The position numbers were made by a program, and so were the translations under genes. Shown here one piece after another: positions 4,637 through 47,700 of a stretch of 64,000 nucleotides of DNA. Below the pieces are notes generated by a model that was not told the origin of the DNA, did not search any database, and was given only the letters and a program-made list of their open reading frames with translations. Position 1 is the first letter of the stretch; each line of letters opens with the position of its first letter. Source of the DNA: Stegostoma tigrinum (Eukaryota); assembly GCF_030684315.1 (NCBI RefSeq), contig NC_081393.1, forward strand, positions 5,963,565 through 6,027,564. The letters are read 5' to 3'.

Positions 4637-5259
4637 AGGTTGAGAACAGCAACATTCAAAGTTAGATACAATGGTGACTGATATGTGAAACTGGGTATGT
4701 TAGAGAAGGATAAACGTGTGTGCAATTGTCAAGGAAATTAATCTGACAGCAGCAACATTTCCTGTTGTATATTGGCTTTAGGCAGGTTCACATGAAGTTT
4801 TCTTCATTCGTGCGTTGGGTTCCAAAGATTTCTGATGATTTATTTTTCACAAGTGACCTGTGGATGAGATTTATGTTGACGATCTTAGCAGCAGTCTGCA
4901 ACACATCCTGTGCTTTGTAGTCTTGAGCCCAGTATTGATATAATTGCCAATTGAATTTCTTGGACCTTTGCAGATTGGTGGACACTACTTTTGGTTTTCC
5001 CCCATTGAGTGACAGAAGTTCTTGCTGATCCCATCACAAAAAAAATCTGTCAGGTCACCCTTCACCTTTTCTCGAAGGGGCAAGAGTTCTATCTGTTCGA
5101 TCTTTCCCCATGTGTGCTACCTCTCAGCCTTGGTGCCATCCCAGTGAGCCTTTTTTCAACCTTCCTCCATCTCTTGATAACATGGAGTCCAAGACAGTAC
5201 GAAGTCCTCCCAGCTGCTGTCCTGCCAAGTTTCAAGGCAACTTGAACGATTGTCCTGAA

Positions 5260-5352
5260 AACGAAAAATGCTGGAAGTCACAGCAGGACAGGCAGCCTCC
5301 GTGGAGACAGACCAAGCTAACGTTTAAAGTCCAGATGACTTTCTTCAGAACG
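5260..5352 (-). mobile_element. Degenerate Penelope terminal-repeat fragment with decayed hammerhead-like motif
   Basis: Minus strand GTT-CTGAAGA-AAGTCATCTGGACTT-TAAAC-GTT-AGC (GAAA mutated to TAAA). Confidence 0.5.
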
Positions 5353-5535
5353 GAATGACTCTCCTTTGCTTTTCAGTTGTAGCTCTGTTGAAGTAAACAG
5401 CAAGTGCCTGATGGCCTGTTTTTACTGGCTGCTTGCGTAGCTGGGTGTTTTGATGCTGGATCCTGTGCCTTTTTCCCCTCCACTTTGACTCTGTTTACCT
5501 TGTGAGATGACCACCTAGGTTTGATGGTATCTGTG

Positions 5536-5689
5536 ATCAGAGATAATGGGAACTGCAGATGCTGGAGAATCCAAGATAACAAAGTGTGGGGCTGGATGAA
5601 CACAGCAGGCCAAGCAGCATCTCAGGAGCACAAAAGCTTTTGTGCTCTTAAGATGTTGCTTGGCCTGCTGTGTTCATCCAGTCCCACAC
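5536..5689. mobile_element. Fold-back Penelope pLTR mini-insertion with 16-bp TSD
   Basis: ~56-bp inverted arms centred on AAAAG|CTTTT (5636/5637); flanking direct repeat TTTGATGGTATCTGTG at 5520-5535 and 5690-5705. Confidence 0.88.
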
Positions 5690-6234
5690 TTTGATGGTAT
5701 CTGTGGCTGGCCTGATAAATACAGGCCACGTGGATTTTTTAATGTCAGAGGAAGTGTGTTTCTTGCATCAGGCGCTGTGCCTGCTACTGTTTGCACATTA
5801 GGATCCTGTTGAGGGACACATTCCATATCGTTATCTCACCTCGAAATGTTGTGTCTCAATGATCCTGAGCACCTTCTCTTTGCTGTCTGTTAGCTTCGCG
5901 TTGCCTGCTTTTGAATGTTGTAAATAAGGGAAAATGCCACCGTCTTTTATTTGATTAATTCATGTCCCTAAATGAGTAGTTCAATTTCTTTTTGCATTGG
6001 CCAAAGAAATTGTTTTTGAAATAAATTGATTGCTTTGAAATTATTTGCGAATTTCAATCTCGATCTTGGTTTCCAACATGGCTATGCTTTGCTCATTTTC
6101 TCTTGAATGTGAATTTAAACCCTATATGTAGGGAAAGATGTGCTGGTTTTAGAGTAAAGTCCAGAGGATGTTGACAAGAATGACCCCAGGGAGGTCTATA
6201 GGTCAGTACTGGATGGTGTTGAGAAGGATGATGG

Positions 6235-6600
6235 GTGATCTGAAACTTGCAGAATATTGAGATGCCCGGGTAGAGTGGATGTGATGAAGATGTTTCCACA
6301 GTAGGAGAAACGAGGACCCGAGGTCTCAGACTTAGAGTGAGGTGGCGACCCTTTACAATTGAGATGAGGATGAATTTCTAAAGCCAGAGAATGGTGATTC
6401 TGGGCAATTCATTGCCATAGAAGGCTGTGGAGGTCCTTCACTAAGTTTATTTAAGACAGAGATGGATAGTTTCTTGGTTGCTAAGGAGATCAAATATACA
6501 GGGAGCAGACAGGAGAATAGGGTTGAGAAACATATCAGCCATGATCAAATGGCAGAGCTGAATCTGGGCAGATAGGCTGAATTCTGCTTGCAGTATCTTG
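6235..6600 (+). mobile_element. CR1 LINE 3' fragment
   Basis: Similar to the 3' end of the CR1 at 14935-15550 (GAGATGAGG..AATTTC..AGCCAGAG..CAGCCATGATC). Confidence 0.7.
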
Positions 6601-9015
6601 GGGTGCAAATGCAACATAAAAGCTTCTGTTTTGATGTGTTCTAACTGGTTGATTTTGAGGAAAATTCCTTGAATGTTTTCCATTTTGAAGTTTGTCTTTG
6701 TTGGGCGGAGGAAAGCAACTCAAATAGGAAATGAAGGTTTGGAACTCAACTCCAGAGGTTTGGTTTGTTTCTTGAGATGTGAATACGTTGTTATTAGTTT
6801 GAAGGAAATGTCTTGCTGAGCTGGGCCCCTATGATGGTGTATGTACACTGATGTTGACTATGAGAGAGTGAACAGGCAAACGGTGGTCATCTCTTCACAG
6901 TGTGGTTACCTGTCTCTCAGGAAACTGACCTTCAAACTAAGTCTTCAGAGCAAGACCGTTGTAGGCAAATGAAGTGCTCTGTTATACACAGAAGCTGAAG
7001 GCGTTGATAATATCAGAACGAGAACATTTACTTTCTGAAGCCAATAGTCCTTGTTGTAGTTTGTTGTCTTGGCTTATATTCGATACTGAGAATAATTAGC
7101 CACAGCAGATTTAATCTCCATGTAGTTATTGCAATTGAGGGCAGTTTCTGCTGGCTGCTGTGAATTGAGATTAGCCTGAGAGGTCAATCATGATGAGCCT
7201 GTGCAAGCAGTGACCAGGACCTTGCTGAAACTAAGATGAGGCTAAAGAACTGGCAGAAGCTGACAAACTGATGCATTCATTGATGCACTGATGGCATCTG
7301 GTGGGTGTCCTACTGGATCTATTGATAGACACGGTGACACTGCAGAGGACACATGGAGGAAGCTGTTCTCCAAACAATTTTCTCTGTGAGTGTCAGAAGC
7401 TGTGTCATTTCTACTCTAATCAGCCTGTTAGACAGTGTCGTAAGGATTGCTGTGCTCATCCCTTGGACCCTCGCTGCCTCACATCCAGATTGGAACAGTC
7501 AAAGTTTGAGCGTTATCCCCAGCTCACTGCAATGGACGCCACTTAAAGTTCACTGCGATGGAACATGGGACAATGTGTTGGTCACAATCGTGATAGAGAA
7601 CATCGATTTTCAAATTCCCACCATCTGGTTTTAATGCCTGAAATTGTTGTGGACTGAAGCGGTTTGATAAGGTAAGTACACCAACTTAAAATGGTCACAG
7701 CAATCAGCTGACCCTACAGGTTAGCTTAGCAATGTGAAACCATAGAACAAGTGAAATTAGCTGAACTGACATGGATATTTTATCAAAAGTTGCTGAAACT
7801 CAATCAGGTGTTGATAAACTGATACCTCCTGTTTTGATTTACACCTGACTGATAAGTTTCAGATCTTGGAGATGAAAGACATCATGCTCAATTACAAAGC
7901 CTGGAAACAAGGAACTTGGATATTGGAGTACACAGTCCCTTTTCTATCGTAGCAGCTGCAGCAAAGGTCACTGCACACTCTGGTGTGATGCAGTGTACGG
8001 AGCTGAGGGCTTGATATATTCCACAGTCAAGCAACAGGCAGCAAAGCAAGATTGTGAAAGCCAGCTGGCCCATGTGAATTTATGATCCTTTTTACAAGGA
8101 AGTCAGGCACCGAAGGTGGTATTGATGGAGGGCAAAAAAGAAGGATCAACTGGTTATGGAAAGCCAGGAACTGAGAAGGAATCGGGGCTCATACGGGGTC
8201 CTCAGTGCCTGCAAAACTGTTCACTCTGATGTTTAAGATTATCTACTCACTCCCATTTCTCTCTCAAATCATACAGTGAAGCAGTGTCACTGCCAGTGAG
8301 ATTTCACTATTATGTTTTCCACTTACCATCTGTGGAAAGTCAAAGTTCACATCTCCTCACAGATGTTCATTTTACTGCTATTTTGGTTCACATCTCAAAG
8401 CAATGATTAATGGGCTTTTAATGTGCAGTGATAAACAGATTAAACATTGTAACTTCAGCTCTTAAAGTCAGCCAGATGACACAATTTCTTCTGGACAGAC
8501 AGAGACTTGCATTTATGTAACCCCTTTCACCTTCTCAGGATGCTCCAGTAGATTTTCCAGTCCGTTGTCAGAAGCAAGCCAAACAATTTGTGCATAGTTA
8601 AGTTCCCACACACACAAATGTGACACAACAAATGCATAACCTGTTTATGGCAAGATCATCGAAAGATAAATATTGGACTGGACACTTGGGAATTGTGCTT
8701 CTCCTTTCACACAATAATGCCCTTGGATGTCTTAATACACTGTTGAGAACAGACATGGACTTGGGCTATTGTCTCAGCACCTCCAATAGTGCAACTCTCC
8801 CTCATTTGTCACAGCTTCAGTTCTTTGCCTGAAGCCCTGGGCTGTGTGGGCCTTGAACCCACACCCTTTAGACTCCGAGGCATGTTCAGGATGACACTGA
8901 CTGAAGCACAGTTCCTTTTGGTTTGAGACCTGCTGACTCAGTGGCATTGCAGCATCGCCCACTGTTTTGTCTGCGATACTGTGTTCCTGGAAGAACAGAG
9001 CCTGCCCCAATTGCA

Positions 9016-9596
9016 TCAGTGATAATGGGAACTGCAGATGCTGGAGAATCCAAGATAATAAAGTGTGAAGCTGGATGAACACAGCAGGCCAAGCAGCATC
9101 TCAGGAGCACAAAAGCTGACGTTTCGGGCCTAGACCCTTCATCAGAGAGGGGGATGGGGTGAGGGTTCTGGAATAAATAGGGAGAGAGGGGGAGGCGGAC
9201 CGAAGATGGAAAGAAAAGAAGATAGGTGAAGAGGAGAGTATAGGTGGGGAGGTAGGGAGGAGATAGGTCAGTCCAGGGAAGACGGACAGGTCAAGGAGGT
9301 GGGATGAGGTTAGTAGGTAGGAAATGGAGGTGCGGCTTGGGGTGAGAGGAAGAACAGGTTAGGGAGGCAGAGACAGGCTGGGCTGGTTTTGGGATGCAGT
9401 GGGGGGAGGGGACGAACTGGGCTGGTTTTGGGATGCAGTGGGGGAAGGTGAAATTTTGAAGCTTGTGAAGCCCACATTGATACCATTGGGCTGCAGGGTT
9501 CCCAGGCGGAATATGAGTTGCTGTTCCTGCAGCCTTTTGTGCTCCTGAGATGCTGCTTGACCTGCTGTGTTCATCCAGCTTCACACTTTATTATCT
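9016..9596 (-). mobile_element. 5'-truncated Penelope-like element 3' end with inverted partial pLTR and 14-bp TSD
   Basis: Body 9016-~9530 on minus (encodes the EN C-terminal LQEQQLIFRLGTLQPNGINV); inverted pLTR piece 9531-9596; TSD CTGC(C/T)CCAATTGCA at 9002-9015 and 9597-9610. Confidence 0.88.
9116..9145 (-). ncRNA. Minimal type-I hammerhead ribozyme motif (intact core)
   Basis: CUGAUGA-A-GGGUC-UA-GGCCC-GAAAC-GUC/AG: conserved CUGANGA and GAAA boxes, stem II and GUC cleavage triplet. Minimal hammerheads are an established feature of Penelope-like element pLTRs. Confidence 0.75.
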
Positions 9597-10476
9597 CTGC
9601 TCCAATTGCAGTTGTGTATATTGAGGTTTTACGAGGAGGAGGGCGAGACTGGGTTTGGCTGTGACACCCAGTACTGCCTAATAGCCTGCTGGGATTTGCT
9701 TGACTCTGACTTGACAAACTGGTCGGGCAGCTTGCAAGAGCCCATGCCTCCAATGGAGAGGAAACTGCAGGGGACGTGGACGTGAATCCAGTCTGTATTT
9801 GCAATGGACTTGCAGCTTTTTCCACTGACCTCTGGCTCAAAACTGCACACTGGAGGTTCAGGTTAAATCACACAGTGGTCAAATCATGAACGCACTGAAT
9901 GAAAATAATGGGTTCCATTTTTGTGGAGTGGCTTTGTCCCACATTTACCTGTCTGATATTTTTAAACTCAAGGCATGAATTGGTCCTCACCTACGCTCCT
10001 TTTAAAATAGCATTCCCCTACAATTCATACTGAGCCTTGTTGACTAAATCTTGTTGCTGAATGTTAGACTGGCCCCACGTGAGCAGTGATTCAGTAGCCT
10101 CACTGTCAGCAGTGTACGACGAAGCAGGATAGCAGCCAGATCTGAGAACCTGCCTTCCCATTCTGCCTGAGAAGGTTGGTAGATAAAATTCTGCGTGCTA
10201 TTGTAGTCTGAAGCGAGGGATGACAAGGGAGAAGTTCAGTTGACCTGTGGTGAGGCTGCCAGTTAAGGCGGCATTGCTGCATCAGAAACACTGACAAGAG
10301 TGGGAAGCAGCTGGCGAAAGGTGGAATTGAGATCGCAACACTTTGCATTCGGTGCTGCATGGTGCATGACTAAAGAACACACTGACAATGATCATGATGA
10401 GGGCAGGAAAGGTAGGGGGGTGTGGTTGTTGCTGTGGGGGGGAAGGCATATTGTAACAAACAGGCTTGGTCATGGT

Positions 10477-10558
10477 CTAGGCCCGAAACGTCTGCTTTTG
10501 TGCTCCTGAGATGCTGCTGGGCCTGCTGTGTTCATCCAGCTTCTCATTTTATTATCTT
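10477..10558 (+). mobile_element. 82-bp pLTR fragment insertion with 15-bp TSD (partial hammerhead)
   Basis: TSD AGGCTTGGTCATGGT at 10462-10476 and 10559-10573; an uninterrupted copy of the same site exists at ~12657-12803. Confidence 0.88.
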
Positions 10559-44542: not shown

Positions 44543-44743
44543 GAGATAGTCGGAAGCGCCAATGCTGGAGGAGAATCTTGAGATAACAAGGTGCAGAGCT
44601 GGATGAACACAGCAGGCAAAGCAGCATCAGAGGAGCAGGAAGGCCGATGTTTCAGAAAAAGGGTCTAGGCCCGAAACATCAGCTTTCCTGCTCCTCTGAT
44701 GCTGCTTGGCCTGTTGTGTCCATCCAGCTCTACACCTTGTTAT
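44543..44743. mobile_element. Fold-back pLTR mini-insertion with 14-bp TSD inside the putative CDS2 3'UTR
   Basis: Inverted arms ~44582-44653 / ~44674-44744; partial hammerhead GGGTCTAGGCCCGAAACATCAG at the apex; TSD CACAAGTATGTCTG at 44529-44542 and 44744-44757. Confidence 0.85.
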
Positions 44744-47700
44744 CACAAGTATGTCTGTTGCAGTTGTTATATTGCTTGACCGATTTTGTTTGTACACTGA
44801 ATTTTTCTATTGTTTACATTTCTGATTGTTGGAATGTTTGTTGGTTAGGGTGTATGGGAAACAGTTTTCCAAAGTGCAGTATTTAGTTTGATTGCAGGAC
44901 CCTGTGAATGAAGGGGCCAGCAACCAGGTGCAGATCGATGGAGGAACCAATTTTCAGGGAATCCTTGTGAAAGGAGTTGGATGGAACATCACAATGATGT
45001 AAAGGAAAAAGACAAACAGTCAGTTCTTGAAACGTTCTTTTTTTCCCAGAAGCTTGCTGAAGGACAAAGCTGTTACACTGTATAGATTTGGTCTGTTACA
45101 AAAGCACTGATACAAATGAGAGTCTGTAAAATCTGTCCCCACACAAGTCCTTGTTGACTTCAACAAGCAGTATCACCTTCGTCACCAAATTCCAGCTGTG
45201 TTTCGTGCAGTGTGCATGAGTAATGCAGTATAAAGTTGCATCTTCTTAGACAGGCCAGTATGAGAGCTGCTGATGTGCAAGCGTACATTAACCCTTTAGA
45301 GGCAGCCATTGGTAGCCACTTCGCCGGTCTTAGCACCGGCACTGGGAGAGCAAATGAACACGTGCCAAAGCTGAGCTGTCGCCAGAACTCAGTTGAAGTA
45401 AGTCGTTAAAAATTCTTTGCTGATTCTCGCGATGACTGGGCTGCAAAGGAGGTATGTCGTCCCCAGTCATGGAGGGCTGTAACCTTAGCCGCACATTTTG
45501 CGGCATGAATGGAGACAGGCCATGTTCGCTTCTGTATGCGTGTACCTAACAGCACGGCTCAGCGCCCCTGTTACTACTGCCCGTGGGACCTACTGACAGG
45601 GGCGTTGTAATATTGTGATTTCACTCCCGCACCAACCACCTTCCCCATTCCCTGTTCCCAATCCAGCTCAGACACTGTGAGAGATGTCTGCAGGATCAAA
45701 GCAGGAGCGGTGAAGCCCTTTTGATGTTTTGGAGTGGAGAGTAATTTCTTTGAAAGCAAAACCTGGAAGCGACAAAGGTTGAGGGTGTCAGGGAGCTTTC
45801 AGGGATGGTGTAAGTTTCACGGTTTGGAAGGCAGTGTTTACTGTTTTGTGAAAAAACTCTTGCGATGTGTTTAGTTCCTTGAACAAATTCCATGCACACT
45901 TGCGCAACATGAAGAAGAGTCAATGCCGTTTCTCTGACCTTGGGAAGGTTCAACGTGCTACTTCTTTAGGGCTTTTTGTTGATTATGATTCATTCGTTGC
46001 AGATAATATTCAACAGTCAGTTCAGGCGTGTTTGTGTCAGGCATCCCTCTGGAGCAAGGGCCGTTGAATCTGGACTCCTGCCCTCAGAGGTAGGGACACA
46101 GCCACTGCATCGCAAGAGACCTCAATTCCTTACCACATTAGAATTCCCGTTTGCAATATTTTAATGCATCCCAGTCGGACGGGTTGAAATGAGTTAAAAT
46201 AATTCAGCCACAAATTTAACACCGAATTTAATCAGTGCTCAGGATTTTGAGAATGACCTGCAGGGGGGTGGGGGAACTCAAGGTGTCAAATTGAGAAGAG
46301 ACCTTTCTGCAGGAATTGGGGGTTGCCCACCAACTTGCTTTGGTAACGTCTCATTTCTGAGGGGAAGCACGGACTGCGGCGGTTGAAAAACTACAACGTT
46401 GCTGATTTGACGCTGCAAATACACAGCTGGGTTTGTGCATCCCCCGAGAGCAGTTGCTCCCCCCCCCCCCCCCCCCCGTGGCCAAGTCTGTGGCCTCTTG
46501 ACGCTGGATGCACTTCCCATCTCTGAGTGTCAACCCTAACTTATTCTAGTTATTCCCTCCATGAGGTGGGACTAACTGTTGTTGGAGCAGCTTTTTCTCG
46601 CTTTAGGGATATGACCTCTCTGCAGTCTTTGCTGATATGTTATTCTGCTCAGTGCAGTCGGGACTGATCGGTGCTGTGTAATCTCCCACAAGGATATTGC
46701 AAGGACCCTGTGTTTTGTTATTCACTGCGGCGGCAACGTACTACAACTTCCACTACATGTCTTTTACCTCGATGTTACTTAGGCCGGCAGGATTTAAACT
46801 CATTCCAGGGCCCTGACCATCAACAGAAACTCGCGTTTGTGTAACCTCCTTACAAAATGGGTGGCATCAAATTTACACAAAATCTCAAAGCTGTAACCAA
46901 CTCATCCAGATTAGTTGCAAATTTCTTGATGAGTTGCCTGCTCAAAATCAAGATGGTCTAACGCAACAAACTCAATTTTTTGGGATGACCCTGATGATTT
47001 GATGGGATGTGGGTTCGCCGGCCCATCCCAAATTCCCTCCACTCTCAGTGACTCGCTTGGGCCATTTCAGAGGGTAGTTGAAAACTGTGTTGTCGGTTTG
47101 GAGTCGTAAATAAAGAAGGATATCAGTGGAAAGAAGTGCAGCCGGTGGATTTTTCTAACAAGTGATGATAGTTGAATGGGAAAAAAAAAAATCCAGAATT
47201 AACAATTTAGTTCCACCAGATGGCGTAAAGGGATTATAAACGCATGTTGTTAGCTCCAGCCTCTGGATTAGTTGTCCGGTGAAATTCACACTGTCTCACT
47301 GTCTGCGCTCTACAGTGCCCCCCGAAAATGTACCTTGTAGCAATAAAATTTGCAATTTAAAATCGAGACCGGCTATTGGTCACCAGGAATGTCCAGAGAG
47401 CGGGTTGACTGCCATGGATACCTAACTATTGCAAACACAGTCGCTGGAGTTCAAACTGGGGAGAAGTTAGTTTGGTGACAAGTGCAGGTGGCTGGGAGTT
47501 GGGGTGAGGAAAACCAGGACTTTGAGAGAGACTGACCCAGATAGAATAGTACAGGAGAAAAGACTGCCAGACTCAACCAGGAGACTTAATGTCACGGCTT
47601 CACTTACTATCCACAACCTGCATTTCGTGTTTGATTTGTAAGTTCCAGCCCAGAAAAGACACATTCAGAAATTAACATTTACAGCGTGAAACTGAAGGAA

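What the first reader, a model, noticed from the sequence alone, without database searches (positions are those of the whole stretch)
5520..5705. Fold-back retro-insertion whose apex is exactly the predicted hammerhead cleavage site
Seen: a loopless ~56-bp palindrome centred on AAAAG|CTTTT, flanked by a 16-bp TSD. In the intact pLTR (9116-9145, 58349-58378) the ribozyme reads ...GAAACGUC^AGCUUUUGUGC, so the 3' cleavage product begins with AGCU. Both arms here start precisely at that AGCT and contain no ribozyme-core bases. Inference: the template was self-cleaved RNA, and the cDNA reached its 5' end and re-primed through the AGCT palindrome. This would be a genomic footprint of in vivo ribozyme activity and a route to MITE-like hairpins made by a retroelement.
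Basis: partly seen in the sequence, partly recalled or inferred. Interest (0 to 1): 0.75.

Follow-up and report, generated by a model that had tools for sequence, protein, structure and literature searches.

The report
Shark retroelement hairpin at ribozyme cut
A 154-base hairpin left by a Penelope-type jumping gene, probably in a shark or ray, turns round exactly where the element's self-cutting RNA should cut, but hairpins like this are already known for these elements and this one site cannot show that the cut caused the turn.

Summary
Observation confirmed: 57-bp arms (4 mismatches), loopless apex at 5636|5637, exact 16-bp target duplication. It is a head-to-head inverted-pLTR insertion of a GIY-YIG Penelope-like element. 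Palindromic inverted junctions and self-priming are already in print (PMC3846280). The apex AGCT does start the predicted hammerhead 3' product, and a second copy (9015-9596) also has an inner end there.

Fold-back of one cDNA predicts a 6-nt-looped apex instead, and copy 44543-44745 needs two separately templated arms, so two cDNAs annealing through AGCT fits better. In public contigs the listed 5' ends pile up at 9146, the 5' edge of the hammerhead, 29 nt upstream of the cut (692, 723 and 144 contigs; two organisms). No row at 9112-9119 is among the 24 of 1,697 shown, though that test under-counts perfect hairpins. The cut site also coincides with the 3' foot of an inactive hairpin and a microhomology-rich spot, so cleavage is not needed. 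Odds that cleavage set this apex: about 0.45. The pile-up at the hammerhead's 5' edge is the better lead.

The parts
5520..5535 (+). Left copy of the 16-bp target-site duplication
   Evidence: Exact match to 5690-5705; two occurrences in the window. Family duplications in the window are 14-16 bp.
5536..5638 (-). Left arm: pLTR from the first base after the predicted hammerhead cut to the long-tail 3' end (103 nt)
   Evidence: 96% identical to reference positions 411-513; outer end equals the 9015 end listed for 542 and 540 contigs.
5635..5638 (.). AGCT shared by both arms: apex, first four bases of the predicted 3' cleavage product, 4-nt self-complementary word
5635..5693 (+). Right arm: pLTR from the same AGCT to about 10 nt short of the usual short-tail end; last 4 nt shared with the target
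   Evidence: 90% identical to reference 411-468; shares private variants with the left arm.
5690..5705 (+). Right copy of the target-site duplication
9116..9147 (-). Intact minimal type I hammerhead of companion copy B, used as reference; predicted cut between 9118 and 9117; alternative inactive hairpin with feet at 9145 and 9116
   Evidence: No Rfam hammerhead hit at E<=1.
9015..9596 (.). Comparator B: inverted-pLTR insertion, 14-bp duplication with one mismatch; the short arm's inner end lies 2-5 nt past the cut, in a 4-nt microhomology with the body
44543..44745 (.). Comparator D: inverted insertion, 14-bp duplication; both arms read through the cut site, and neither arm contains the other
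10474..10558 (+). Comparator C: solo copy starting in stem II, 15-bp duplication; empty paralogous site near 12706-12720
51300..51433 (+). Comparator E: solo long-tail copy starting at the hammerhead 5' edge, nested in an older inverted PLE (50996-51556)
58348..58441 (+). Comparator F: solo short-tail copy starting at the hammerhead 5' edge, 14-bp duplication
10955..12385 (-). 5'-truncated body of the same family: end of RT, CX4CXXC linker, GIY-YIG region, pLTR with hammerhead
34852..36350 (-). Second, rearranged body fragment with RT motif region and GIY-YIG; no pLTR end

Best explanation
A Penelope-like element nicked both target strands 16 bp apart. Each 3' end primed its own cDNA in the pLTR tail: one at the long-tail start, the other near the short-tail start using a 4-nt match to the target. 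Both cDNAs ended at the 3' edge of the hammerhead, most simply because their templates were self-cleaved RNAs that begin with AGCU. Both cDNA ends then read AGCT, annealed to each other through it, and were filled in, giving a loopless palindrome between the target duplications. Shown: anatomy, duplication, identity of arms, apex position. Inferred: two primings (about 0.7 on its own) and cleaved templates (about 0.45 on its own). Cleaved RNA would be a minority template: most short copies read through the cut and stop at the hammerhead's 5' edge.
For: Apex is the first four bases after the predicted cut, and stem I pairs change together between families (C-G, U.G, U-A at 2.2/1.2), fixing the register. 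The outer ends match the two 3'-end classes in contigs, 9015 and 9053/9054, like the two RT start sites of the anole element, whose protein cuts and extends both strands and is needed for hammerhead cleavage. All 3 inverted copies of this family in the window pair a long with a short tail, and in D neither arm contains the other, which a single fold-back cannot give. Two cDNA ends pair by 4 bp (-4.8 kcal/mol). Copy B's short arm also starts 2-5 nt past the cut.
Against: No loose end at 9112-9119 among 24 of 1,697 rows and no such joint among 15 of 176 shown; the peak shown is at 9146. Of 12 inner ends in the window with a known body, only 3 (from 2 insertions) lie at the cut; leaving out the selected locus, 1 of 3 inverted insertions does (p 0.07-0.42 by null). 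The monomer prefers an inactive hairpin (-11.4 against -3.6 kcal/mol) and cofolding gave no dimer stem III. In the anole element cleavage was not needed in vitro and no RNA-seq reads ended at the cut. The right arm stops about 10 nt before the usual short-tail site.
Confidence: 0.38

Rival explanations
1. Two cDNAs as above, but on uncut RNA: reverse transcriptase stalls at the 3' foot of the folded hammerhead hairpin, or longer cDNA ends are trimmed back to the AGCT microhomology. The match to the cut site is a by-product of the ribozyme's geometry.
For: The lowest-energy fold has its 3' foot at 9116, within 2 nt of the cut. 5 of 16 inverted microhomologies of 4 nt or more in the region cover the cut position. 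D and B were joined at 4-nt microhomologies. Most short copies read through the cut. Unprocessed RNA was the dominant substrate in vitro.
Against: Both arms must end within the same 4 nt; 4 other self-complementary words lie nearby and were not used here; B's inner end falls at the same spot.
Confidence: 0.35
2. One reading: one cDNA ran off a self-cleaved RNA, snapped back at its 3' end and copied itself; the copy joined the target by a 4-nt match.
For: Right arm lies wholly within the left arm and ends off the usual short-tail site. Self-priming has been proposed for Penelope palindromic junctions, and self-annealing with 2-bp microhomology and a small hairpin is reported at L1 ends.
Against: AGCT alone leaves no loop; the folded cDNA end pairs 3 bp around a 6-nt loop, predicting a looped apex that restarts about 9 nt further in. 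D cannot be a fold-back.
Confidence: 0.1
3. Secondary deletion: the insertion first carried the hammerhead as the loop of the hairpin (a cDNA ending at the common 5'-edge stop pairs back at the hairpin's other foot), and the loop was later lost between two direct AGCT copies.
For: The two breakpoint classes are the two feet of one hairpin, 9145 and 9116; an inverted 4-nt match links them. Microhomology deletions are common in Penelope copies.
Against: Two steps; the looped precursor is not in the window and not among the 15 joints shown; the DNA fold of such a cDNA did not pair its 3' end that way.
Confidence: 0.13
4. Assembly or library artefact (chimeric fold-back read).
For: Loopless palindromes are a known artefact type (recalled).
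Against: Exact 16-bp duplication, 4 differences between arms and asymmetric family-specific ends; four runs hold 0.94 of the sampled words of 4800-10300.
Confidence: 0.02

Closest known systems
Inverted-pLTR insertions of EN+ Penelope-like elements, with palindromes at the inverted junction (Arkhipova et al. 2013, PMC3846280; Craig et al. 2021, PMC8557442; passages read)
   Same: Head-to-head pLTRs, an optional 30-40-nt tail on one arm, target duplication, palindromic junction, self-priming already proposed.
   Different: Here the unit is minimal (154 bp, no ORF, no ribozyme) and the junction sits at the hammerhead cut; the passages read do not relate junctions to the ribozyme.
Poseidon element of the green anole (Frangieh et al. 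2024, PMC11167929; parts 1-2 of 4 read)
   Same: Two tail ends matching two internal RT start sites, hammerhead just upstream, both target strands cut and extended.
   Different: This family has a CX4CXXC linker (Neptune/Nematis type). That paper found no RNA ends at the cut and reports no genomic 5'-end classes in the text read; its Fig. S2 image was not seen.
Minimal type I hammerheads of metazoan PLEs and non-LTR retrozymes (PMC4209133; bioRxiv 10.64898/2026.07.22.740005)
   Same: CUGANGA core, extra base before stem II, palindromic stem III needing a dimer, many solo copies, pairs on opposite strands.
   Different: This insertion has lost the ribozyme; it is not a tandem retrozyme.
LINE-1 twin priming (PMC2837659, listing only; passage in 10.1101/2024.12.14.628481)
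   Same: Inverted, truncated insertion inside a target duplication, two cDNAs joined in the middle.
   Different: In L1 the two pieces are neighbouring parts of one RNA; here they overlap, so two templates or two passes are needed.
R2 HDV-like ribozyme and its 5' junctions (PMC3774820, abstract only)
   Same: Precedent that a ribozyme cut site shapes genomic 5' junctions.
   Different: Other ribozyme and element class; cleavage there was assayed.
MITEs
   Same: Short, non-coding, inverted arms, target duplication.
   Different: Arms are retroelement tails, unequal in length; no second copy of the unit in the window; no evidence of mobility.

Membership tests
EN+ Penelope-like element (PLE) | RT followed by C-terminal GIY-YIG endonuclease in the parent element | tested here: met
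   RT fragment hits 55 proteins, among them an 892-aa RVT_1 + GIY-YIG protein; GIY-YIG E 0.00038 but 21.1 bits, under the 22.6 cut-off, in 1 of 4 frames scanned; Atlas top hits 0.96-0.97 carry GIY-YIG in 17-21% of members. Copies are broken.
EN+ Penelope-like element (PLE) | pLTR with hammerhead downstream of the ORF, optional tail, direct or inverted arrangement | tested here: met
EN+ Penelope-like element (PLE) | Target-site duplication on insertion | tested here: met
   14-16 bp in 5 of 8 insertions examined; none convincing for the other 3.
Neptune/Nematis clade | CX2-5CxxC linker before the GIY-YIG domain | tested here: met
   CX4CXXC in two body copies; definition.
Neptune/Nematis clade | Placement in an RT phylogeny | not tested
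   No tree was built.
Minimal type I hammerhead | Core CUGANGA...GAAA, stem II, palindromic stem III, NUH cut, stem I | tested here: met
   Present at 9116-9147; stem I is only 2 bp in this family, 3-4 bp in two older families, with compensating changes. Not found by Rfam.
Minimal type I hammerhead | Self-cleavage as dimer or with protein | not testable with these tools
   Energy models favour an inactive hairpin but ignore tertiary contacts and protein.
Footprint of ribozyme cleavage | Excess of genomic inner ends at the cut site | tested here: inconclusive
3 of 12 ends in the window, not significant.
MITE | Many near-identical copies of the unit with terminal inverted repeats used by a DNA transposase | tested here: inconclusive
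   Only one loopless unit in the window; arms are unequal PLE tails; no genome was held to count copies.
Non-LTR retrozyme | Tandem units each with a hammerhead | tested here: not met
   The insertion has no hammerhead and is inverted, not tandem. Tandem 85-124-nt units of the family do occur elsewhere.
mir-3150 precursor (Rfam RF03972) | Score at or above gathering (100 bits) | tested here: not met
   48.8 bits; generic hairpin match.

The most novel reading that the evidence does not exclude
The boundaries of short insertions in this elasmobranch PLE family are set by the two edges of its hammerhead. Uncut RNA gives a sharp run-off at the core's 5' edge (about a quarter of the listed 3'-end count), possibly the transcript start; a dimer of self-cleaved RNAs, copied by a dimeric RT from both target nicks, gives loopless AGCT palindromes like this one. 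Shark genomes would then hold a countable fossil record of in vivo hammerhead cleavage during retrotransposition.
Probability: 0.3. Interest if true: 0.68.

Novelty: new member of a known kind. Interest (0 to 1): 0.4.

Why it matters
What PLE hammerheads do in vivo is open: a 2021 paper calls it unclear, and the only in vitro system found cleavage dispensable and no RNA ends at the cut. A very high-copy family whose insertion ends fall at ribozyme landmarks makes the question testable by counting junctions in an existing assembly. This single locus is suggestive only; the pile-up of 5' ends at the hammerhead's 5' edge, seen in two organisms, is the stronger observation and was not found in print in searches.

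Tried and rejected
No whole genome held. Exact tail patterns found 0 loci in viral, metagenome and prokaryote genome collections, so no further copies could be read base by base. No RNA holder listed; no statement on expression is made. The depth table was not used as evidence (one figure per contig). The 9109 loose-end row of X2 (139 contigs) mixes a subfamily difference with possible ends near the cut and cannot be read either way. Rfam gave no hammerhead, only sub-threshold miRNA hairpins. First homologue search (endonuclease region, longer proteins) scored 0 of 510 candidates; 3 of 4 frames had no Pfam hit. Splice-acceptor origin of the 9146 end rejected: no AG precedes it and the loose letters are diverse. 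Three look-ups of earlier findings returned nothing. Lunse et al. on dimer cleavage was not held; known only through a review. Supplement text of PMC11167929 had 0 hits; its Fig. S2 on genomic ends was not seen and may bear on novelty. Left out of the count of 12 inner ends: older-family copies at 5269-5350, 16650-16700 and 61624-61695 (no body to compare), a weak hit at 8980-9018, and the 34852-36350 fragment (no pLTR end).

Full report
Observation. The window holds a loopless palindrome centred at 5636|5637 with 53 of 57 positions paired; the next longest in the window is 17 and 20 shuffles gave 14-18. The 16-mer at 5520-5535 is repeated exactly at 5690-5705 and occurs only twice. Against a reference taken from the minus strand of 9015-9527, the left arm matches positions 411-513 at 96% and the right arm 411-468 at 90%; position 411 is the first base after GAAACGTC. 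The insert is thus 154 bp and asymmetric.

What it belongs to. Upstream of the same pLTR lie broken bodies at 10955-12385 and 34852-36350. An RT fragment hits 55 proteins, the named ones from sharks, skates and rays, and one 892-aa protein with RT and GIY-YIG domains. A GIY-YIG match scores just under the Pfam cut-off in 1 of 4 frames, the Atlas agrees, and a CX4CXXC linker points to the Neptune/Nematis type (no tree built). The host is probably an elasmobranch (inference from those hits). The ribozyme at 9116-9147 fits the minimal type I hammerhead of Cervera and de la Pena (parts 1-2 of 4 read). The cut between 9118 and 9117 is supported by stem I: 2 bp here, 3-4 bp in two older families, with the second pair changing among C-G, U.G and U-A. 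Rfam did not detect it.

Other copies in the window. A profile search gave 16 hits. Twelve inner (5') ends can be placed because the upstream body is known: 3 at the cut (both arms here, and the short arm of 9015-9596, which starts 2-5 nt past it in a 4-nt microhomology), 4 at the 5' edge of the core (44650s, 51300, 58348, 51455), 2 inside stem II or the GAAA (10474, 44650 left arm) and 3 in the body. Five of 8 insertions examined have 14-16-bp duplications. Leaving out the selected locus, 1 of 3 inverted insertions has an end within an 11-nt window at the cut; p is 0.42 or 0.07 by the span assumed. That is compatible with an excess but does not show one.

Genome-wide test. No genome was held and three collection scans were empty. 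I laid contigs of 4 of 21 listed runs (X1, X2 organism A, one study; X9 organism B; X15 organism C) on 8960-9410. Loose ends with long, diverse flanks mark true insertion ends. 3' ends: 9053 (1,514; 1,525; 334 contigs), 9054 (575; 575), 9015 (542; 540). 5' ends: 9146 (692 in X1, 723 in X2, 144 in X9; not listed in X15) and 9140 (152 in X1). Position 9146 is the base just 5' of CUGAUGA, 29 nt upstream of the cut; it equals 26-27% of the listed 3'-end count in X1 and X2. Head-to-tail joints from 9146 back to the tail (6-7 contigs each) point to the same end. Nothing at 9112-9119 is listed. So the cut is not the dominant sharp boundary, but a minority class there is not excluded.

Mechanism. Three points favour two cDNAs over one fold-back. 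First, the outer ends match the two 3'-end classes, as do those of the other two inverted copies; in the anole element two internal RT start sites make the tail, and the protein cuts and extends both strands (parts 1-2 of 4 read). Second, in 44543-44745 the short-tail arm holds core sequence that the long-tail arm lacks and the reverse, so neither is a copy of the other. Third, a cDNA ending in AGCT folds at its 3' end into 3 bp around a 6-nt loop, which would restart about 9 nt further in, whereas two such ends pair with each other by 4 bp and give exactly the observed apex. Against: the right arm stops about 10 nt before the usual short-tail site, at a 4-nt match to the target, which either route explains.

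Does the apex need cleavage? Not necessarily. The lowest-energy monomer fold is an inactive hairpin (-11.4 against -3.6 kcal/mol) with feet at 9145 and 9116, the two places where ends cluster; cofolding gave no dimer stem III. An RT stall at the 3' foot gives the same footprint. Five of 16 inverted microhomologies in the region cover the cut position, and AGCT is 1 of 5 self-complementary words. Collapse of a hammerhead-looped hairpin between two AGCT copies is a third route (inference). For cleavage: both arms end within the same 4 nt, a second copy ends there too, cleavage is protein-assisted in the anole element and occurs in dimers (review), which could cut two templates together (inference). 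I put cleavage at about 0.45. The 9146 end could be a transcript start in the pLTR (internal promoters are known; resemblance of the pyrimidine run to a TCT initiator is recalled, untested) or a stop at the hairpin's 5' foot.

Comparison with what is known. Inverted pLTRs with tails are typical of PLEs (passages), and palindromes at the inverted junction were described and ascribed to self-priming in 2013 (passages). Opposite-strand hammerhead pairs and solo motifs were noted in 2014. R2 gives the precedent for a ribozyme cut shaping 5' junctions (abstract only). Twin priming is known from L1 (listing; passages). The 2026 retrozyme preprint (part 1 of 5 and passages) has no mention of cleavage sites. 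I found no paper tying PLE junctions to hammerhead landmarks; subscription papers and figure images were not seen. Earlier scan notes gave nothing.

Verdict. A real, ordinary kind of PLE insertion with a suggestive apex. The follow-up worth doing is the junction histogram, which would test both the cut site and the unexpected pile-up at the hammerhead's 5' edge. Interest 0.4.

Noticed in passing
window:9146 (laid contigs): The main listed 5' end of short copies is the base just 5' of the hammerhead core, in organisms A and B; window copies at 51300, 58348 and the right arm of 44543-44745 start within a few bases of it. Transcript start or structural stop; unexplained.
   Followed up: partly
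window:9009-9021 with 9053-9056: All 6 opposite-strand joints listed are tail to tail and always long tail with short tail (80 contigs in X1, 79 in X2, none in X9 or X15); may reflect tandem inverted units or insertion at the element's own tail.
   Followed up: no
window:9140-9146 back to 9017-9062: Head-to-tail joints giving 85-124-nt hammerhead-plus-tail units (6-9 contigs each), retrozyme-like.
   Followed up: no
window:10416-10658 and 12658-12804: A local duplication (94-99% identical) in which one copy carries the solo pLTR at 10474-10558 and the other is the empty site with a single copy of the 15-bp target.
   Followed up: partly
window:50996-51556: Older PLE family with a 4-bp stem I, in inverted arrangement, with a younger pLTR (51300-51433) inserted in its body.
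   Followed up: partly
window:5269-5350, 16650-16700, 61624-61695: Decayed hammerhead-pLTR remnants of further families; the first lies 170 bp from the finding.
   Followed up: no
window:5635-5693: All four differences between the arms are transitions on the right arm, none at CpG; could be chance.
   Followed up: no
window:35122-35256: A piece of the RT region is inserted within the 3' part of the same PLE fragment, with a short repeat around it; internal template jump or later rearrangement.
   Followed up: no
window:1012-2100, 25663-26700, 59269-60500: Tandem arrays with periods of about 22, 17 and 32 bp, and long CA/CT microsatellites with N gaps near 20900-22700 and 57000-57500.
   Followed up: no
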